A program made the translations under genes and the position numbers. A DNA stretch of 45,006 bases from a virus: the UHGV virus genome UHGV-0250353; one strand, given 5' to 3'. This document shows, piece by piece, positions 1 to 45,006 of this stretch; within the stretch, counting starts at the first letter, position 1; every line of letters starts with the position of its first letter. Below the pieces are notes generated by a model. That model saw only the letters and a program-made list of their open reading frames with translations, did no database searches and had not been told where the DNA came from.

Positions 1-786
1 ATTTGGGGTAATAGCGAAAGATGAAGCCAAGCTCCCGTCGTAACTGGATGTTGTCCTCTGCTTGAACCACGCCGAGTTGCCGAAATTATTGCTAAAAGTA
101 AGTATGTTTTCCGCTGCGGTTTCAGGGGGGACGCGCCCGGCGGCAACACCACCGATAAACGTAAGAGGCCATTCATTGGTGGTGGACTGCACAAGATTGC
201 CGTTCCGGTTGATATAATAAACCCGCGGCCCGTCATACACAACGCGGCTATCAAGAGTCGACGCCAGAAGGTTAATCGGTGGGTATCCTGCAGGCCCTTC
301 ATTGCTCCAGATGCGCGGGAACGTCGTTTCGTAGTTAGCATATATTTTCATGAAACTGCCCAGACGATCCCCGTAACAGCCGTACAAATCCGGAAGATTC
401 TTCGTAAGGCATGTATCTTCCTGAATAGCTGTTCTCTCTGCCGTGGCGGTGAACGTAATTACCCAGTTCTTACCGTCGTCGGTGCTATCACTAATCGTCG
501 ATGTGATGAGTATCTGGTGGTCCTCGATGCCCATACCTGTATCATGCGGCATGATAAACGAGGACGCACCGCCGTCGATGTTGTTCAGGAAGCTATAAAA
601 CGCCTGGCGCCCGAGAGAAGACACTACTAGCGTTACGCTAATTGGTACCGGTTCAAAGTACGTGTCTCTCCCCTGGCGGGGTAAGCCGCCCTGAACCTCT
701 GTGCGCCAGATATTACTCCCCCTTGTCTGAGAGTACCCCTTCGACACTATAGGCTTTAAACTTGTTGGAAATCTTAAAGAAGACAT
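1..786 (-). CDS. tail protein, 5' part of a gene that runs off the left edge (262 codons present)
   Basis: ATG at 786 with AGGAG RBS 9 nt upstream; reverse frame open to position 1; directly follows tape measure in tail module; frame is continuous with open reverse frame 44407..45006 if the sequence is circular. Confidence 0.5.
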   Translation of the reverse strand, partial: MSSLRFPTSLKPIVSKGYSQTRGSNIWRTEVQGGLPRQGRDTYFEPVPISVTLVVSSLGRQAFYSFLNNIDGGASSFIMPHDTGMGIEDHQILITSTISDSTDDGKNWVITFTATAERTAIQEDTCLTKNLPDLYGCYGDRLGSFMKIYANYETTFPRIWSNEGPAGYPPINLLASTLDSRVVYDGPRVYYINRNGNLVQSTTNEWPLTFIGGVAAGRVPPETAAENILTFSNNFGNSAWFKQRTTSSYDGSLASSFAITPN

Positions 787-821
787 AGTAAGATACTCCT
801 ATTATTTTAGGAGATACTAAC

Positions 822-1472
822 ATGATACCCACAGAAAAAGTAGCTAAGAGTATGTGGCTGCGCGCGAATTATCCCGCGAACAAAAGCAGCAAAACTAGGC
901 GTGCAACTATATGCGATTTTGGCATAAATGATGCCGATTATGTGGTTAGTCCTAAGATAAACGGCAACCGTGAGCCGTGTCCTGCGTACGCTACGTGGCG
1001 AGGGATGATCCAACGTTGCATAGACGTCGAGTATAAAAACAAAAGACCTGCATACAAGGATGTAACTGTGTGGCATGGGTGGCAAAGGTTTATGTCCTTC
1101 CGTAGATGGTGGCTTTGTAATTACGTAGAAGGATGGGAACTAGATAAGGACTTATTCTCTGGTATTAATAAGATATACAGCCCCACCACTTGCATTTTTA
1201 TTCCGCAATGGTTGAATGTTTTTCTACTGGAAAGGAAAAATAGTGGGTCACCTACAGGTGTTTTTTATGAAGAATCAAGAGGTAAATTTAAAGCCTCAGT
1301 GAAATATGAGAAAAAAACTATTAATCTAGGACGTTTTGAAACTCAGGAAGAAGCGCTAGATGCCTACATCGCTGAAAAGATAAGGATAGCAGAATCAAGA
1401 AGATGCGAGATAGAGGCGATAAGAGAAGGTATGTTCGCCCGCGTTATCGCCTTGATAAAAGAGGGGCGTTAG
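822..1472 (+). CDS. AP2-domain putative homing endonuclease-like protein
   Basis: ORF track 216 aa; GGAG RBS before ATG 822; AP2-like segment GVFYEESRGKFKASV...LGRFETQEEALDAY; opposite strand to flanking tail genes. Confidence 0.5.
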   Translation: MIPTEKVAKSMWLRANYPANKSSKTRRATICDFGINDADYVVSPKINGNREPCPAYATWRGMIQRCIDVEYKNKRPAYKDVTVWHGWQRFMSFRRWWLCNYVEGWELDKDLFSGINKIYSPTTCIFIPQWLNVFLLERKNSGSPTGVFYEESRGKFKASVKYEKKTINLGRFETQEEALDAYIAEKIRIAESRRCEIEAIREGMFARVIALIKEGR

Positions 1473-1481
1473 CCCCTACCT

Positions 1482-3791
1482 TTAATACCCCGGCTGACCG
1501 CGAGTAGAGCGGCGAGCTTTAGAAATCGGTGAGTTGTTATCCTGTAACTGCGACGCTACTGTTTCACTGATTATAATACGTAAACGCCCTTCGTCATCAC
1601 GTTCTGTTACAGCAGAATCTACGCGCCCCGTAGTGTTATTAACTATAGTGACGTTATCACCGCCGGACTGGCCACCGTTTTGCCCCATAATCTCTTTCAT
1701 CTGCTGCGCAGTTCGTACGCGCGATGCGCCAGCAGGCATGATAACTTCCGGTTTGCCGCGTTCTGCGATGGTAGACATCTGCCCCGCTGATAACTGACCG
1801 CCCTGCTCACGTGCCGAGCGGATTTTGGCGATATTAGCCAGCCCCGCGGCAACGGCAGTACCTGCGGCAACCGGTGCCAGGAATGGGCCGACAACCGGTA
1901 TCGCTGCGGTAGACTTATATGCTTCGATAGCCGAGGTGTATGTTGCGATAGTGGCCTGGGCAATAGCAAACGCTTTATACGCGGTGGACGCCTCGCCAAA
2001 TGCCGTTTTAGCATTAGCTGCCATGTCACCGAAAGAACTACCTAAAGCCTCGGCGCGCTTCGTAGCATACTGCTCATTGATAGCGTTAAGCGCCGCCTGA
2101 TACTGTTCCTCGTTAATAAGCCCCTGTTCTCGATACTTATCAGCGACAGCCAGTTTCTGCTGTTCCTGGATGTCGAGGAGCTCAAGCTCAGCGGCGTTCT
2201 GCCCCATAATCTGGGCCATGAAGTCATCGCCTTTCTGCTGCTTTTCCTGCTGCTCTTTTCTTTTCTTATCCAGTTCTTCCTGTCTGGCCTGCTCGGCTGT
2301 GAGCATAATTTGAGTTTTGGCGTTTTCGTATTGCTGCTGGCTTATCGTTCCTGCGCGGTTGAACTCTTCAAGTTTTGCCAGTTTCTGCTCTTCGGCCGCC
2401 GTGATGCGAGAAATTTCATCTCCGGTTGTACGGTCAACCGTAGCAAGGAAATCTTCCGCGGCTTTCTTCTGGCGTTGTGCCGCCGTTTCTTCACGTTTGG
2501 CCTGCGCCGCCAGACGTTTCTCGTTCGATTTAGCCTCGCGGTCTGCCTTCTCTTTCTCGGTCTTGTCAATGCGGGCGATGTCTTGCTGTGCTTCCGTGTC
2601 ACGAGCAGCATTATACGCGGCGATCTGTTCTTTGGTTACAGCTTCACGTTTAGCAAACGCCTGCTTATCCAGTTCAGCTTGCGCCCGGATGCGCTCACGG
2701 TCGCTTAAGATGGCGATTTGCTGATTCTTGACGATAGCTTCGTTCTGCTCCTGGAACCTCTGCGTGGTTGAGTTAACGTTACGACCGAGATTCTTTTGGG
2801 CTTCCGCCGCTGCGTTTGCGGACTTCTCCGCGTTCTCCAGTGCTGTGGCGTTCTTGTTGGCGTTGTCTGTCAGGCGGATAAGTTCCGGATTCAACTGTTT
2901 TGTGTTACCGAGCCAGTCGGTAAACACATCGGCGATGCGGCGGGCATTCTCGGCGGTTGGCTCTTTGTTAAACGCGCTCTGCGCCGCTATCATCTCCAGC
3001 GCCTGGTCACGGTTAACCCCGAACTTACTGCTAAGCTCCGCTATATTCTGCGCCAGCATGTTGACGCCTACGATGTTACCCTCGTAAGTGCCGCCAAGTT
3101 TTTCTAACGTGTCGCCTACATCCGCACCCTTAGAGACCAATGCATCGTACTGGCTAATAGCGGATGCCGTGGAGGCTTTCCATGTCTCCCATGACTCGGC
3201 GTCCTCGCGGACAGCTTTAGCTGTTTGCTGCGCGATAAGGTCTGCGTTAGCCTTAGCCAGAGCAAGCTGAGTCTCCGCCGCTTCTCTGCTGATTTGGGTA
3301 AGCTGGATAAGGCCGTCTGTCAGTTCGAGGGAGCCAGATGCCGTTTGCTGGAAGGTGTCTTTTAACTGTTTCTGCGCGGCTTCCAGGTCTTTTGAACTGC
3401 CTTCTGCTTCGGTTAGCGATTTGTACAGGACACCGCCGATTGCCGAAGCAAGAGCAATCACAGCCCCGAGCACCGCGCCACCAGGTCCGAAAGCACCAGC
3501 AAGCTGCGAACCTTGTTGCCCGATTGCTACGAATGCAGACGTGCCGGATTGCAACTGGACTACCATGTCCTGCACCTGGAAGCCAACCTGCCCTGCAGCG
3601 TTACGGAACTTAGCGAAACCGTCGGAGGCCGCTTTAGACGTAGCGGAGTTTACTTTATTAACGTCCGGCGTTAGTTTGTTTACGGATGTGTCCGCCCGGT
3701 CTGCGGATGCCGCCATAGCGTCAAGCTGTTTAGCGGCCGCATCAGCGCCTTCTGTTTTTACTCTGGCAATTAGGGAAGCCGTATCAGCCAT
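1482..3791 (-). CDS. tail tape measure protein
   Basis: about 770 aa Ala/Gln/Glu-rich coiled-coil protein immediately downstream of chaperone pair; ATG 3791 with GAGG RBS preferred over TTG 3806 used by ORF track. Confidence 0.8.
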   Translation of the reverse strand: MADTASLIARVKTEGADAAAKQLDAMAASADRADTSVNKLTPDVNKVNSATSKAASDGFAKFRNAAGQVGFQVQDMVVQLQSGTSAFVAIGQQGSQLAGAFGPGGAVLGAVIALASAIGGVLYKSLTEAEGSSKDLEAAQKQLKDTFQQTASGSLELTDGLIQLTQISREAAETQLALAKANADLIAQQTAKAVREDAESWETWKASTASAISQYDALVSKGADVGDTLEKLGGTYEGNIVGVNMLAQNIAELSSKFGVNRDQALEMIAAQSAFNKEPTAENARRIADVFTDWLGNTKQLNPELIRLTDNANKNATALENAEKSANAAAEAQKNLGRNVNSTTQRFQEQNEAIVKNQQIAILSDRERIRAQAELDKQAFAKREAVTKEQIAAYNAARDTEAQQDIARIDKTEKEKADREAKSNEKRLAAQAKREETAAQRQKKAAEDFLATVDRTTGDEISRITAAEEQKLAKLEEFNRAGTISQQQYENAKTQIMLTAEQARQEELDKKRKEQQEKQQKGDDFMAQIMGQNAAELELLDIQEQQKLAVADKYREQGLINEEQYQAALNAINEQYATKRAEALGSSFGDMAANAKTAFGEASTAYKAFAIAQATIATYTSAIEAYKSTAAIPVVGPFLAPVAAGTAVAAGLANIAKIRSAREQGGQLSAGQMSTIAERGKPEVIMPAGASRVRTAQQMKEIMGQNGGQSGGDNVTIVNNTTGRVDSAVTERDDEGRLRIIISETVASQLQDNNSPISKARRSTRGQPGY

Positions 3792-4170
3792 CTTCTCTGC
3801 CCTCAAATATTCCGTCTAAGCCCATGATAACCTCGGCTTCGAACAAACTTATGCCGTAACCGGCGACATCACGAAACGCTACCAAATCTTGCCATTTGAG
3901 CGCATCGCGCGGGATTATAACGATAGTATCATCTGTTTCGCGCTGTAGGAATTTAATGGCACGGTATTTCTCGAACACGTCGATAAGAGAAACGGGGCAT
4001 TCTGGCCCCGTCGCTTCTTTCATCTGCGGTTCTTTAATCACACCCATTGCGATCAAAGCTGCTTGATGCCCCGCCGCGATGTCGTCGAATTGCTTACGTT
4101 TCTGGCGGTCGACAAAGCACCATTGCGCAAATTCATACAGCGCTTTTACTTTTCCGAGAGTTTCTCGCGG
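3784..4170 (-). CDS. tail assembly chaperone, -1 frame extension (GT-like fusion partner)
   Basis: reverse frame -1 relative to 4146..4562 is open from 4170 to stop 3784..3786; no ATG of its own (track start is TTG 4056); overlaps GGAAAAG at the last codons of upstream ORF. Confidence 0.4.
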   Translation of the reverse strand, partial: PRETLGKVKALYEFAQWCFVDRQKRKQFDDIAAGHQAALIAMGVIKEPQMKEATGPECPVSLIDVFEKYRAIKFLQRETDDTIVIIPRDALKWQDLVAFRDVAGYGISLFEAEVIMGLDGIFEGREDG

Positions 4171-4562: not shown

Positions 4563-4669
4563 TCTTTGATCCTTTGGTTAAGAGGTTACAGGTTAAGGTT
4601 GACGCGCCAGACGGGAACCACCCGCTTTTCGTGTGCGACACTAGGCGCAAACTTATTCTAGCACACTAC

Positions 4670-4958: not shown

Positions 4959-6089
4959 ATGGCCCATAAGAAAATAACCGACGAACAGTTACAGGAAGAA
5001 TTGAACGCCGGAATGAAGAATGCAGACATCGCCCGTAAATACGGCATCTCAGACCGCGTAATTCGTATCCGTAAAGCGAAGCTGGCTAAGAAAGGCGTAG
5101 GCCACGGGCGTGACGTTAGTCACCTTGTCCCGGACGGCTACAAAATTAAAGGGACCTCGTCACTGGTGGACGAGTTCGGCAACACTAAACTTCAATGGGT
5201 TAAGACCGACACCGATGCCGAACGTCAGGTCGAGTTGATGAAAGCCGTAATCGAAGGCATGAAGTCGGAGATTACTCCAGTTGCACCAGTTAAAGCCGTT
5301 CGCGCCAAACGTGACGATAAACTACTCAATCTTTACACGGTATCTGATTTCCATCTCGGTATGCTGGCCTGGGCCGACGAGAGCGGCGACGACTGGGATA
5401 TGAAGATTGCGGAAGACCTGTTCTCTCGCTGGTTCGATGCTGCGTTCCAGAAAGCGCCAGATGCAGGAACAGGAGTTATTAACCTGCTTGGCGACCTTGC
5501 GCACTTCGATAGTCTGGATGCCGTTACACCTGCAAGCGGCCATGTTCTTGACGCGGACACGCGCTATCAGAAACTGGTCCGCTACATGATTCGTATGGTT
5601 CGCCGTGTTATTGATATGGCGCTGGTTAAGCATAAAAATGTTCGCTTGCTTATCGTGCAAGGGAACCACGACGAAAGTGGAATGATTTGGTTAGCTGAGA
5701 TGTTCAGTACGCTGTACGACAATGAGCCGCGTGTGTTTGTCGATACTTCACCAGATGTTTACAAGATGGTGCAACACGGCAAAACGACGCTGTTCTTTAC
5801 ACACGGGCATAAATGCCGGTTTGAGGTTGTCGAACCAATTATGATAGCTAAGTTCAGAAAAGCATTTGGAGAAAGCGAGTACAGTTACGCGCATGTAGGG
5901 CATCTCCACCATCAAAAGATTGTAGAAAGTAGGAATATGGTAGTGGAGCAACATCGCACTCTCGCGGCGAAAGATGCATATGCTTCCCGCGGCGGGTGGA
6001 TGTCTAAGAGGTCCGCTAATGTCATAACCTATAGTTCAGAGTTCGGGGAAGTAGGTAGGCTTTCAATCTCACCGGAGATGCTAAGATGA
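4959..6089 (+). CDS. HTH domain fused to calcineurin-like metallophosphoesterase
   Basis: GAGGAAG RBS then ATG 4959; motifs DFHLG, GDLAHFD, GNHDES, THGH, GHLHH in canonical order; N-terminal ADIARKYGISDRVIRIRKAK HTH-like. Confidence 0.7.
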   Translation: MAHKKITDEQLQEELNAGMKNADIARKYGISDRVIRIRKAKLAKKGVGHGRDVSHLVPDGYKIKGTSSLVDEFGNTKLQWVKTDTDAERQVELMKAVIEGMKSEITPVAPVKAVRAKRDDKLLNLYTVSDFHLGMLAWADESGDDWDMKIAEDLFSRWFDAAFQKAPDAGTGVINLLGDLAHFDSLDAVTPASGHVLDADTRYQKLVRYMIRMVRRVIDMALVKHKNVRLLIVQGNHDESGMIWLAEMFSTLYDNEPRVFVDTSPDVYKMVQHGKTTLFFTHGHKCRFEVVEPIMIAKFRKAFGESEYSYAHVGHLHHQKIVESRNMVVEQHRTLAAKDAYASRGGWMSKRSANVITYSSEFGEVGRLSISPEMLR

Positions 6090-6556
6090 AGTACCTTGAT
6101 GTTTCAAAACAATTTAAATACTGCCCTGATACGGGGCAGGTTACCAGGATATCTACTGGTGCTGAGGTTGGTACGGTTGGTGTAAGAGGATATCTGTGCT
6201 GCGGTATGGGTGGTAAAACAGTATATGTCCACCGCGTAGCATGGTGTCTTTATAATAAATGTGACTTAGACAGGAAAACACAAATAGACCACATAAACCA
6301 TAACAGGCTAGACAATAGAATAGAAAATCTACGCGCCACCGACAATACAGGGAACAGTAAAAATAAAACTATGAGAAAGATAAATAAATCCGGGGCTACA
6401 GGTGTAAGTTTCCACAAAGCCGCGGGTAAGTGGCGCGCGTTTATAAAAGTTAACTACAAACAAGTGCATTTAGGGCTTTACGACGATTTTGATGTAGCGG
6501 TTGCCGCGCGTAAAGCCGCTGAGAGTAAATACGGTTTTCATGAAAACCATGAGTAG
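6086..6556 (+). CDS. HNH homing endonuclease with AP2-like domain
   Basis: HRVAW...QIDHINHNRLDNRIENLR HNH motif; GVSFHKAAGKWRAFI AP2-like; ATGA overlap with upstream gene. Confidence 0.75.
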   Translation: MKYLDVSKQFKYCPDTGQVTRISTGAEVGTVGVRGYLCCGMGGKTVYVHRVAWCLYNKCDLDRKTQIDHINHNRLDNRIENLRATDNTGNSKNKTMRKINKSGATGVSFHKAAGKWRAFIKVNYKQVHLGLYDDFDVAVAARKAAESKYGFHENHE

Positions 6557-30621: not shown

Positions 30622-30676
30622 CTACTTAACTTATGGTGCCATCATACGTGAGGGCACCAAACTGAGGGTCGGAATT

Positions 30677-31165
30677 ATGGATTGGCATGAGATATTCGAC
30701 TATGACCGCGCCACAGGAAAATTGTATTGGAAAATACAGCCATCTCATGCGGTTAAGCCGGGTGAAGAGGCTGGAAGTGTGGGAACTGAGGGTTATGTAG
30801 ATGTTGGTTTTGCAGGCCGTTTATATAAGGCGCATCGCATTATATGGGATATGATGAACACTGACGATAAACTAACGCCGAACCACCAAATAGACCACAT
30901 AAACCATATCAGAACGGATAATAGGATAGAAAATTTAAGGAAGGTACACCACTGTGACAACGCCAAAAATCAAAGCATGCGCGTAGACAATACCTCAGGT
31001 GTCGCGGGAGTATACTTCGACCGAACTAATAGAAAATGGAGGGCCCGCATTAGGGCGAGTGGCACGACCATTTGTTTGGGGAGATACGATAGTTTAGAAG
31101 AAGCCGCATGCGCACGCCAGAAAGCAGAAGAGATTTACGGGTTTCACAAAAATCATGGGGGGTAA
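30677..31165 (+). CDS. HNH homing endonuclease with AP2-like domain
   Basis: QIDHINHIRTDNRIENLR HNH motif, paralogue of 6086..6556; ATG 30677 with GAGGG RBS preferred over ORF-track start. Confidence 0.75.
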   Translation: MDWHEIFDYDRATGKLYWKIQPSHAVKPGEEAGSVGTEGYVDVGFAGRLYKAHRIIWDMMNTDDKLTPNHQIDHINHIRTDNRIENLRKVHHCDNAKNQSMRVDNTSGVAGVYFDRTNRKWRARIRASGTTICLGRYDSLEEAACARQKAEEIYGFHKNHGG

Positions 31166-44406: not shown

Positions 44407-45006
44407 TTAACCGTCCACATTAAAATCAATACGGGTTATATATTTACTACCCCACGCAGAATCCGCTTGGGGGATGGTGGCGTAGTTATCTACTGCGGGC
44501 ACGTTTACGGTAGAACCATCAGAGTATGTAATGTCGATGCTTGTCGCACCATTCATGGCTACTTTTGCCGATGCCATAGGTCTTGCTACCGGTGATGCAT
44601 CGGTTACTATTGGCGATGTGGAGAACTCGCCTTTTTCTATTTGAGGCGAGGACACGATGATGCCACTGACACCATCGCCAGCAAACGATGATACGGTCGC
44701 TGTTTGGTAAACCCATACCGCCAGATTTAAGCCGCTGAACCCACCCGACGGACCAGTTACTGTTTCAGTAGCCCGATACCATCCGCCTCCTATAGATGTT
44801 ATTGTGGAGTATGCTTCGCCATCTACAATGGCCCCGGATGTAAGGTTTACTATCGCGGAAGAGATGTGCGTAGTGTCCTGATTTGCCGCGCGGAGTCTGG
44901 CGAAATCATACCCATTCGCCTTAAAAAATACACTGAATGTGTATTTTTCACCTTCTAAAATCTGTGCGGAAACGGTCTGGTTAACTGTGTGAACACCTGT
45001 GTCCCC
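44407..45006 (-). CDS. tail protein, 3' part of a gene entering from beyond the right edge (200 codons present)
   Basis: reverse frame open from 45006 to stop at 44407..44409 with no in-frame start except GTG 44655; same frame modulo 3 as ORF 1..786. Confidence 0.5.
   Translation of the reverse strand, partial: GDTGVHTVNQTVSAQILEGEKYTFSVFFKANGYDFARLRAANQDTTHISSAIVNLTSGAIVDGEAYSTITSIGGGWYRATETVTGPSGGFSGLNLAVWVYQTATVSSFAGDGVSGIIVSSPQIEKGEFSTSPIVTDASPVARPMASAKVAMNGATSIDITYSDGSTVNVPAVDNYATIPQADSAWGSKYITRIDFNVDG

What the first reader, a model, noticed from the sequence alone, without database searches (positions are those of the whole stretch)
822..1472. Three free-standing homing-endonuclease-like genes, one interrupting the tail operon on the opposite strand
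HNH/AP2 genes at 6086..6556 and 30677..31165 are clear paralogues (QIDHINH[NI]R[LT]DNRIENLR). A third AP2-containing gene (822..1472) sits on the plus strand between the tape measure and the next tail gene, a typical homing insertion. Their targets and their contribution to mosaicism are unknown.
Basis: partly seen in the sequence, partly recalled or inferred. Interest (0 to 1): 0.4.

Follow-up and report, generated by a model that had tools for sequence, protein, structure and literature searches.

The report
Mobile endonuclease-like genes in a coliphage
The three genes are real, patchily distributed selfish-type inserts of a well-known kind in an E. coli Kagunavirus phage; the one between the tail genes belongs to a described but biochemically untested "IPA-HNH" class that lacks the usual catalytic histidine.

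Summary
The window is a complete, circularly permuted Kagunavirus (Guernseyvirinae) genome. ORFs 822..1472, 6086..6556 and 30677..31165 exist.

The last two are HNH_3+AP2 paralogues (42% identity). Relatives annotate them as HNH homing endonucleases.

Gene 822..1472 sits on the opposite strand, exactly between the tape-measure stop codon and the start codon of the next tail gene. Only 7 of 109 related phage records carry it, and at least 22 have a clean empty site. Here it lies in a different backbone (SZH-1-like) than in the other carriers (XY1-like). It arrived with only 34 nt of flank, so it has moved laterally.

It is not a canonical HNH protein. It has a C-terminal AP2 domain plus an N-terminal domain with no Pfam or PDB match. 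That domain is homologous to ICP1 Gp209, a founder of the "IPA-HNH" class of Barth et al. 2023. It carries an invariant D-K-D motif and no conserved histidine. Nuclease activity is inferred, not shown.

All three genes are sporadic and have lower GC than the genome. Gene 2 is 98% identical to a copy in Salmonella jerseyviruses, against about 80% for its flanks.

Verdict: ordinary homing-type elements, a new member of a known kind, of low to moderate interest.

The parts
822..1472 (+). HEG1: 216-aa IPA-HNH-class protein, made of an N-terminal D-K-D domain and a C-terminal AP2 domain
   Evidence: ORF. phrog_953 at E 6.5e-65. tblastn hit to ICP1 GP209 at E 6e-13. AF2 model with pLDDT 93. dN/dS of 0.13-0.18 against XY1-group copies. 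GC 0.424 against 0.504 for the genome.
822..1235 (+). N-terminal domain of HEG1 (aa 1-138). The predicted beta-beta-alpha element spans aa 105-136. Invariant residues are D108-K109-D110 (nt 1143-1151), Y119, C124 and N132 (nt 1215-1217).
   Evidence: Alignments A2, A4 and A5. DKD is present in 120/120 and 145/145 homologues. There is no Pfam family, no PDB sequence match and no significant PDB fold match. The family has 22,665 cluster representatives at E<=1e-3.
1248..1388 (+). AP2 DNA-binding domain of HEG1 (aa 143-189)
   Evidence: Pfam AP2 at 22.6 bits, sub-threshold. Profile against WRI1 AP2 at E 1.8e-7. Foldseek matches to 1gcc, 7et4 and 7wq5. hhalign against the AP2 domain of the HNH_3-AP2 paralogues at E 1e-12.
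787..1481 (.). The 695-nt insert relative to HEG-less relatives, lying exactly between the TMP stop codon (TTA 1482-1484 on +) and the minor-tail start codon (CAT 784-786 on +)
   Evidence: Empty sites: AV104 TAA-CCA-ATG, SZH-1 TAA-TTA-ATG, Bas75 TAA directly followed by ATG. Relatives H1-H22 lack about 690 nt at this position.
753..786 (-). First 34 nt of the minor tail gene, in the HEG-associated allele (MSSLRFPTSLKP). It was co-transferred with the cassette. It is a candidate for an immunised target site, for a promoter carrier, or for both.
   Evidence: 90% identical to HEG+ phages and 46-53% to HEG-less alleles. From nt 36 onward the pattern reverses: 83-96% to SZH-1/AV104 against 53-73% to XY1. 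33 of 35 columns are invariant even in HEG+ contigs whose HEG protein is only 56-60% identical.
765..794 (+). Sigma-70-like promoter candidate for HEG1: TTGGAA, 18 nt, TAAGAT (8/12 matches)
   Evidence: Sequence. The homologous position in L013 and L014 reads TTGGAA/TGGAAA-TATAAT (10/12) and is flagged by the scan. It falls below the scan threshold in the window itself. Function is inferred.
787..821 (.). 35-nt divergent intergenic region with two Shine-Dalgarno sequences: AGGAG at 810-814 for HEG1, and AGGAG (CTCCT at 796-800 on +) for the minor tail gene
   Evidence: Read from the sequence.
1462..1477 (-). GC-rich hairpin overlapping the HEG1 stop codon. On the tail-operon (minus) strand it is terminator-like (AGGGGCTAACGCCCCT followed by CTTTTATCAA), directly after the TMP stop.
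   Evidence: Scan. A homologous hairpin occurs in L014 at 4661..4642. XY1-group carriers have a different hairpin further downstream.
1482..3806 (-). Tail tape-measure gene. Its 3' end is SZH-1-type (99% in the first 100 nt) and not XY1-type (51%).
1..786 (-). 5' part of the 461-aa minor tail gene. The remainder lies at 44407..45006 because the genome is circularly permuted.
   Evidence: Annotated as minor tail protein or hypothetical protein in relatives.
6086..6556 (+). HEG2: canonical HNH_3 (HNN-type) plus AP2 free-standing endonuclease gene, downstream of the phosphoesterase/exonuclease gene
   Evidence: Pfam HNH_3 at 39.8 bits and phrog_99. Annotated as HNH homing endonuclease in relatives. 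98.1% identical to Salmonella phage S100, against 81% and 78% for the flanks. 39 full-length copies among about 398 flank-matching records.
5760..6085 (+). Apparent co-conversion tract upstream of HEG2, in the 3' end of the upstream gene
   Evidence: 94-99% identity to Jerseyvirus S100 in this tract, against 56-87% further upstream and 72-85% downstream of the HEG.
30677..31165 (+). HEG3: HNH_3 plus AP2 paralogue of HEG2, upstream of the PD-(D/E)XK-type exonuclease gene
   Evidence: Pfam HNH_3 at 38.5 bits and phrog_99 at E 1.2e-64. 42% identical to HEG2. The site is empty in FSL SP-101 (gap 30631-31155). Only 7 records carry a copy covering at least 80%.

Best explanation
The window carries three free-standing homing-endonuclease-type genes. 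HEG1 (822..1472) is a mobile cassette of the IPA-HNH class, with an N-terminal D-K-D domain and a C-terminal AP2 domain.

Shown here:
- The cassette occupies one specific site, between the tape-measure stop codon and the start codon of the next tail gene, on the opposite strand.
- It brings its own ribosome-binding sites for both divergent genes.
- It brings a replacement version of the first 34 nt of the tail gene.
- It has been laterally placed into an SZH-1-like backbone different from that of the other known carriers.

Inferred:
- In mixed infections the protein binds, through its AP2 domain, a sequence at or near the TMP/minor-tail junction of cassette-less Kagunavirus genomes and cuts it.
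- The break is repaired from the cassette-bearing genome, which copies in the cassette plus a short flank.
- The recoded 34 nt protect the carrier from self-cleavage (Ser and Leu codon-family switches that keep almost the same peptide). They also carry the -35 element of the cassette's own weak promoter.

HEG2 and HEG3 are canonical HNN-AP2 endonuclease genes that spread in the same way.
For: Site and sporadic distribution:
- 7 of 109 related records carry HEG1, always at this site.
- Metagenomic phage contigs whose HEG protein is only 56-60% identical have it at the same site and in the same orientation.
- Empty sites are precise.

Lateral transfer:
- The right flank is 99% SZH-1-like and 51% XY1-like.
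- In the left flank, the first 34 nt are HEG-type (90%) and the rest is SZH-1/AV104-type.

Family membership and function:
- The protein is homologous to ICP1 GP209, a founding IPA-HNH HEG (PMC10448857).
- The family is multi-copy in Flaumdra- and Barba-phages, as reported for IPA-HNH.
- Other phages carry paralogues at other tail-operon sites.
- dN/dS is 0.13-0.18.
- D-K-D...N is invariant in 265 of 265 homologues checked.

Other support:
- GC is low.
- A promoter-like site is conserved at the same position.
- HEG2 is 98% identical across genera, with a 330-nt co-conversion tract.
- HEG3 has an empty site in a relative.
Against: - No nuclease activity is shown for HEG1 or for any IPA-HNH protein in the literature searched.
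- The N-domain has no Pfam HNH hit.
- It shows no profile-profile similarity to the HNH_3 domain of the paralogues (E 0.58 and 0.19).
- It has no significant PDB fold match.
- It has no conserved histidine: K109 sits where the HNH general base would be, and that register is only an insignificant alignment.
- Sporadic distribution and recombinant flanks can also arise by ordinary recombination of a non-nuclease accessory gene.
- The promoter in the window is weak (8/12) and was not called by the scan.
Confidence: 0.6

Rival explanations
1. HEG1 is a nuclease-dead, domesticated descendant of a homing endonuclease. It would act only as a sequence-specific DNA-binding protein through AP2 plus the D-K-D domain. 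Possible roles are repressing a gene of the host, of a competing phage or of a defence system, or tuning tail-gene expression. This would resemble CapR of PLE satellites or the CapR+AP2 CasPR anti-CRISPR repressors.
For: - No catalytic His, no HNH call and no structural nuclease match.
- Strong purifying selection and absolute motif conservation are unusual for selfish HEGs, which tend to decay.
- There are precedents for AP2 or HEG-derived DNA-binding repressors in phages (bioRxiv 10.64898/2026.02.23.707548; PMC10448857 discussion).
Against: - The N-domain is not a CapR zinc finger: only C124 is invariant and there is no Cys cluster.
- The gene behaves like a site-specific mobile cassette with a co-converted flank.
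- It is multi-copy in several phage lineages and is scattered next to essential genes, which is the HEG pattern.
- An invariant acidic and basic triad plus Asn on a predicted beta-beta-alpha element suggests a catalytic or metal site rather than a mere binding surface.
Confidence: 0.2
2. HEG1 is an ordinary accessory gene (a moron) that is shuffled by general or illegitimate recombination between co-infecting Kagunaviruses. It would have no self-promoting activity. Its position at an operon junction would only reflect where insertions are tolerated.
For: - Kagunavirus genomes are mosaic: 66-78% coverage at about 89% identity to the nearest relatives.
- The minor tail gene itself exists in long and short forms among relatives.
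Against: - The same exact site and orientation recur in contigs whose protein is only 56-60% identical.
- The recombination breakpoints hug the cassette: 34 nt on the left and 0-10 nt on the right.
- The architecture is a DNA-binding AP2 fusion homologous to recognised HEG families.
- The two other HEGs in the same genome show the same pattern.
Confidence: 0.12
3. The ORF is a decaying, non-functional remnant of an old insertion.
For: It lacks the downstream hairpin terminator present in XY1-group carriers.
Against: - The 216-codon frame is intact in all carriers.
- dN/dS is 0.13-0.18.
- All family-invariant residues are present.
- The AF2 model is confident, with pLDDT 93.
Confidence: 0.03

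Closest known systems
IPA-HNH homing endonuclease genes (ICP1 gp59, gp115-116, gp209; Barth, Dunham & Seed 2023, PMC10448857)
   Same: - HEG1 is directly homologous to ICP1 GP209 (tblastn E 6e-13).
- Both have an N-domain invisible to Pfam HNH_3 plus a C-terminal AP2 domain.
- Both are free-standing and sit next to essential or structural genes.
- The family is abundant in Barba- and Flaumdra-viruses.
   Different: - HEG1 is in an E. coli Kagunavirus, at the TMP/minor-tail junction and on the opposite strand.
- My hhalign test against an HNH_3 profile did not reproduce any HNH similarity.
- The invariant D-K-D motif and the absence of a conserved His are not mentioned in the passages of that paper that I searched.
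- The class is defined bioinformatically only.
HNH(HNN)-AP2 free-standing endonucleases (Magnani et al. 2004, as cited in PMC10448857; Xanthomonas phages Xp10/OP1/Xop411, PMC2248197)
   Same: - HEG2 and HEG3 have this exact architecture: D-H...N...N followed by AP2.
- They show the same gain and loss pattern among related siphophages.
- HEG1 shares only the AP2 domain.
   Different: The N-domain of HEG1 is unrelated at the level of detectable sequence or profile similarity.
Canonical HNH_3 / His-Me finger homing endonucleases such as I-HmuI (from memory)
   Same: - HEG1 has a predicted beta-beta-alpha element with an acidic residue at the end of strand 1 and an Asn on the helix.
- The K109-to-N132 spacing is 23 residues, similar to the 21 residues from H74 to N95 in HEG3.
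   Different: - The general-base His is replaced by an invariant Lys.
- There is no significant sequence, profile or fold match.
T4 free-standing HEGs (Seg and Mob families), which spread by intronless homing with flank co-conversion (established knowledge; discussed in PMC10448857)
   Same: - The genes are inserted between genes rather than in introns.
- They are sporadic among relatives.
- Flanking markers are co-converted: 34 nt for HEG1 and about 330 nt for HEG2.
   Different: - The nuclease families differ (GIY-YIG, or HNH with a zinc finger).
- Cleavage and marker exclusion have been demonstrated experimentally for T4 but not here.
CapR (PLE satellite) and CasPR anti-CRISPR repressors (bioRxiv 10.64898/2026.02.23.707548)
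   Same: They are phage or satellite proteins built from HEG-type DNA-binding modules, including AP2, and they act without cutting DNA.
   Different: - They carry a Cys-rich CapR zinc-finger domain that HEG1 lacks.
- They are found in Bacillota prophages and Vibrio satellites.
- They are not site-specific mobile cassettes.

Membership tests
IPA-HNH HEG class (Barth et al. 2023) | N-terminal domain homologous to that of ICP1 gp59, gp115 or gp209 | tested here: met
   tblastn of HEG1 hits ICP1 GP209 over aa 56-191 at E 6e-13. The alignment shares the invariant residues W59, R65, Y78, W96, D108-K109-D110, Y119, P121, C124 and N132.
IPA-HNH HEG class (Barth et al. 2023) | C-terminal AP2 DNA-binding domain | tested here: met
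IPA-HNH HEG class (Barth et al. 2023) | Too divergent for the Pfam HNH_3 profile | tested here: met
   No HNH family hit at E<=1 for HEG1, nor at E<=10 for 24 diverse N-domains.
IPA-HNH HEG class (Barth et al. 2023) | HMM-HMM similarity of the N-domain to HNH domains (HHsearch in the paper) | tested here: inconclusive
   hhalign against a 28-sequence HNH_3-AP2 profile aligns only AP2. With the N-domains alone, E is 0.58. The best local register pairs ELD with QID of IDH, at E 0.19. A full Pfam or PDB HMM library was not available.
Canonical HNH / His-Me finger nuclease | Catalytic histidine (general base) at the end of beta-strand 1 | tested here: not met
   For HEG1, no invariant His exists in the family, and the position is Lys in 265 of 265 homologues. 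For HEG2 and HEG3 the feature is met, with an invariant D73-H74.
Canonical HNH / His-Me finger nuclease | Beta-beta-alpha metal-finger fold | tested here: inconclusive
   AF2 predicts strands 105-108 and 125-128 followed by helix 129-136. Foldseek of the N-domain against the PDB gives nothing significant: best E is 5, colicin E9 scores E 7.9 and I-F HNH Cascade scores E 9.6.
Canonical HNH / His-Me finger nuclease | Metal-dependent DNA cleavage | not testable with these tools
   This needs biochemistry.
Pfam HNH_3 + AP2 (for HEG2 and HEG3) | HNH_3 score above the gathering threshold, followed by AP2 | tested here: met
   HNH_3 scores 39.8 and 38.5 bits against a cut-off of 24.8. AP2 hits have E 1e-3 and 5e-5.
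Homing endonuclease gene (functional definition) | Presence/absence polymorphism at a fixed site among close relatives, with precise empty sites | tested here: met
   HEG1. HEG2. HEG3.
Homing endonuclease gene (functional definition) | Evidence of lateral transfer with co-conversion of adjacent flank | tested here: met
   HEG1: a 34-nt left tract and a different right-flank backbone. HEG2: 98% identity against about 80% for the flanks, with a 330-nt tract.
Homing endonuclease gene (functional definition) | The encoded enzyme cleaves the HEG-less allele near the insertion site, and inheritance in crosses is biased | not testable with these tools
   This requires in-vitro cleavage assays and co-infection crosses.
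CapR/CasPR DNA-binding repressors | CapR zinc-finger domain with four or five conserved cysteines | tested here: not met
   Only C124 is invariant and C53 is nearly so in the HEG1 family.
Intron- or intein-encoded HEG | Embedded in a self-splicing intron or an intein | tested here: not met
   The gene lies between two complete genes. There is no Rfam family, including group I and II introns, in 500..1800 at E<=1.

The most novel reading that the evidence does not exclude
The N-terminal domain of HEG1 represents a very large phage-borne domain family with no Pfam entry and no PDB relative (22,665 50%-identity clusters). It is routinely labelled 'HNH endonuclease' yet has an invariant Asp-Lys-Asp motif and no histidine at all. 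Two readings remain open. It could be a previously unrecognised catalytic variant of the beta-beta-alpha-metal nucleases that uses Lys, or the invariant Tyr119, instead of His. Alternatively it could be no nuclease at all, in which case thousands of annotated 'homing endonucleases' would be sequence-specific DNA-binding proteins with another function, such as repression or exclusion.
Probability: 0.25. Interest if true: 0.55.

Novelty: new member of a known kind. Interest (0 to 1): 0.25.

Why it matters
Free-standing homing-type genes drive mosaicism and marker exclusion in phages, including those developed for therapy. Here they mark at least three recombination boundaries in a Kagunavirus genome, one of them inside the tail operon. 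That much is expected biology.

The modest extra value has two parts. First, it is a clean natural example of an IPA-HNH cassette caught in two backbones, with a 34-nt recoded flank. This defines a short candidate target site for the first biochemical test of that class. Second, the class has an invariant D-K-D motif instead of the HNH histidine, so its assumed nuclease chemistry is unproven.

Tried and rejected
- PDB sequence searches with the protein and with the family profile returned only AP2 domains.
- NCBIfam returned no hit for any of the three proteins.
- Foldseek of the full model against the PDB returned only AP2.
- Foldseek of the N-domain alone against the PDB returned nothing significant.
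- hhalign of the N-domain against the HNH_3 domain of the paralogues, in local, low-mact, global and sub-region modes, found no similarity.
- A Pfam scan of 24 diverse N-domains at E<=10 returned only scattered noise.
- The intron hypothesis was rejected: no Rfam match, and the gene lies between intact genes.
- The CapR/CasPR zinc-finger identity was rejected: there is no Cys cluster.
- The default sigma-70 scan found no plus-strand promoter upstream of HEG1 in the window. The candidate emerged only from comparison with L013 and L014.
- The antisense ORF 807..1085 (92 aa, TTG start) was not pursued. It lies within the HEG1 antisense strand and has no support.
- A literature search for follow-up work on IPA-HNH found only the defining paper.

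Full report
**Context.** The 45,006-nt window is a complete, circularly permuted genome of a Kagunavirus-type siphophage (Guernseyvirinae) of E. coli. Its nearest database relatives are hz69, AV104, SZH-1 and XY2, which cover 66-78% of it at about 89% identity. A 461-aa minor tail gene starts at 786 on the minus strand and continues at the right end of the window.

**Observation.** All three ORFs exist as described: 822..1472 (216 aa), 6086..6556 (156 aa) and 30677..31165 (162 aa), all on the + strand.
- Proteins 2 and 3 hit Pfam HNH_3 above threshold plus AP2 and phrog_99 'HNH endonuclease'.
- They are 42% identical (E 1e-39) and carry an invariant D-H...N...N motif.
- Protein 1 hits phrog_953 (E 6.5e-65). 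In Pfam it hits only AP2, below threshold.
- The AP2 assignment for protein 1 is secured three ways: a family profile against the WRI1/ERF1 AP2 domains (E 1.8e-7), Foldseek, and hhalign to the AP2 domain of proteins 2 and 3 (E 1e-12).
- No further paralogues exist in the window.

**Anatomy of the insertion at 822..1472.**
- The tape-measure gene ends at 1482 and the minor tail gene starts at 786, both on the minus strand.
- In HEG-less relatives the two are separated by 0-3 nt: AV104 TAA-CCA-ATG, SZH-1 TAA-TTA-ATG, and Bas75 with TAA directly followed by ATG. The annotated starts in AV104, SZH-1 and hz69 lie 21 nt or more too far downstream.
- In the window, 695 nt (787..1481) are intercalated.
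- The 35 nt between the two divergent start codons contain an AGGAG for each gene.
- The HEG stop codon lies in a GC-rich hairpin (1462-1477), 9 nt from the TMP stop. On the tail-operon strand this hairpin looks like an intrinsic terminator.
- GC content falls to 0.37-0.44 inside the insert, against 0.50-0.58 in the flanks.
- No Rfam family, and so no intron, is detected.

**Distribution and mobility of HEG1.**
- Of 109 phage records sharing this tail region, only 7 (5 phages: XY1, SHAK7693, fEg-Eco19, VIPECOTH07 and a partial Esher4) carry the gene. They carry it at about 91.5% identity and at the same site.
- At least 22 listed relatives have both flanks contiguous, with about 690 nt missing.
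- Metagenomic phage contigs of 40-43 kb carry 56-60%-identical homologues at the same junction and in the same orientation. The lineage is therefore site-specific and old.
- The window's copy lies in a different backbone from the XY1 group. The TMP 3' end is 99% SZH-1-like and 51% XY1-like.
- In the minor tail gene, only the first 34 nt are of the HEG-associated type (90% to XY1, 46-53% to HEG-less alleles). From nt 36 onward the gene is SZH-1/AV104-like (83-96%) and not XY1-like (53-73%).
- These 34 nt encode nearly the same peptide as the HEG-less allele (MSSLRFPTSLKP against MSDLRFPMSLRP). They do so through Ser and Leu codon-family switches.
- The 34 nt are almost invariant (33 of 35 columns) in all carriers, including those whose HEG protein is only 56-60% identical.
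- I read this tract as part of the cassette, with two roles. It is a candidate immunised target. It also carries the -35 element of a sigma-70-like promoter, which reads TTGGAA-18-TAAGAT at 765-794 in the window and TTGGAA-18-TATAAT (10/12 matches) at the homologous place in L013 and L014.
- The promoter function and the immunity function are both inferences.
- The protein is under purifying selection, with dN/dS of 0.13-0.18 against the XY1 group.

**What protein 1 is.**
- Its N-terminal 138 residues form a confidently predicted domain (pLDDT 91-93).
- That domain has no Pfam family, no NCBIfam hit and no PDB sequence or fold relative.
- It shows no profile-profile similarity to the HNH_3 domain of proteins 2 and 3.
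- The domain family is enormous: 22,665 50%-identity cluster representatives at E<=1e-3.
- It is abundant in phages of Vibrio, Rheinheimera (Barba phages) and Pseudomonas (KIL4, 6 copies), among others.
- tblastn links it directly to ICP1 GP209 (E 6e-13). GP209 is one of the three founders of the 'IPA-HNH' HEG class defined by Barth, Dunham & Seed 2023 (PMC10448857). In that class the N-domain is invisible to Pfam HNH_3 and was called HNH by HHsearch, with a C-terminal AP2 domain.
- The class is defined bioinformatically only. I found no follow-up work.
- The family-invariant residues are W59, R65, W87, F90, F93, W96, D108-K109-D110, Y119, S120, C124 and N132.
- D-K-D occurs in all 120 and all 145 homologues inspected. 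No histidine is conserved.
- The motif lies on a predicted strand-strand-helix element (105-108, 125-128, 129-136), with N132 on the helix. This is topologically what an HNH finger would look like with Lys in place of the general-base His.
- That equivalence rests on an insignificant alignment and on my reading of the motif.

**The other two genes.**
- HEG2 is present full-length in 39 records, against about 398 that share its flanks.
- It is 98.1% identical to the copy in Salmonella Jerseyvirus S100, while the upstream gene is 81% identical and the downstream DNA 78%.
- A tract of about 330 nt at 94-99% identity extends upstream only. This is a textbook recent-transfer and co-conversion signature.
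- HEG3 is present in few relatives (7 records with at least 80% coverage). It is cleanly absent from FSL SP-101, with a gap at 30631-31155.
- Both genes are annotated 'HNH homing endonuclease' in relatives.
- Both match the HNN-AP2 free-standing endonucleases described in Xanthomonas siphophages (PMC2248197).

**Mechanism and rivals.**
- The best-supported explanation (about 0.6) is that all three are homing-type selfish genes. HEG1 would be an IPA-HNH cassette that spreads among co-infecting Kagunaviruses by cutting the cassette-less TMP/minor-tail junction, followed by recombinational repair. Mobility is shown; cleavage is inferred.
- The main rival (about 0.2) is that the His-less protein only binds DNA, as a domesticated repressor in the manner of CapR or the AP2-containing CasPRs.
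- A passive accessory gene moved by general recombination (about 0.12) and a decaying remnant (about 0.03) are less likely. The arguments against them are the site fidelity, the breakpoints that hug the cassette, and the purifying selection.

**Verdict.** The finding is correct but ordinary: a new member of known kinds. The only point of wider interest is that the very large 'IPA-HNH' domain family has an invariant D-K-D motif rather than a catalytic His and has never been tested biochemically. This locus offers a well-defined candidate substrate for that test.

Noticed in passing
window 1462-1477 (minus strand); L014 4642-4661: A GC-rich hairpin followed by a T-rich tract lies directly after the tape-measure stop codon on the tail-operon strand and overlaps the HEG1 stop codon. 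It is conserved in a distant carrier. It could attenuate transcription into the distal tail genes in HEG-bearing phages. XY1-group carriers instead have a separate hairpin (AAGGCCC-TTTC-GGGCCTT) that the window lacks.
   Followed up: partly
window 1570-1597 (minus strand): A promoter-like site (ATGACG-16-TATAAT, 10/12) lies inside the 3' end of the tape-measure gene and points toward the HEG antisense strand and the minor tail gene. The number of such sites in the region does not exceed chance (2 found against 2.5 expected).
   Followed up: no
L014 2133-2759 (+); L012 2471-3103 (+): Other Guernseyvirinae-like genomes carry further IPA-HNH paralogues at other places in the tail region. One (35% identical, on the opposite strand) lies between two other minor tail genes. 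In phage ORH_001 another (37% identical) lies after the 'minor tail protein' CDS at L012 1197-2363. The tail module therefore seems to be a recurrent landing zone.
   Followed up: partly
window 1-786 and 44407-45006; L003, L004, L007: The gene after the tape measure comes in a long form (455-466 aa: window, AV104, XY1, Bas75) and a short form (157-166 aa: SZH-1, VIPECOTH07, fEg-Eco19). The difference is independent of HEG presence, so the C-terminal extension is itself a mosaic module.
   Followed up: no
L001, L004, L005 (AV104, SZH-1, hz69 annotations): The deposited start codons of the minor tail gene in these HEG-less phages appear to be at least 21 nt too far downstream. An upstream ATG, 3 nt after the TMP stop, gives the conserved MSDLRFP N-terminus.
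   Followed up: partly
L002 (OR594180.1, phage SHAK7693): The record is classified as Autographiviridae/Kayfunavirus and named 'EcoM'. However, its tail region, including TMP and HEG1, is collinear with Kagunavirus siphophages. This is probably a taxonomy error in the record.
   Followed up: no
window 5760-6085: The 3' 330 nt of the phosphoesterase/exonuclease gene upstream of HEG2 are 94-99% identical to Salmonella Jerseyvirus S100, while the rest of that gene is 56-87% identical. This looks like an asymmetric co-conversion tract crossing a genus boundary.
   Followed up: yes
P0241, P0256, P0261, P0324, P0349: Some representatives of the D-K-D domain family are 300-570 aa long and match the domain profile in two stretches. 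This suggests tandem or fused architectures that were not examined.
   Followed up: no
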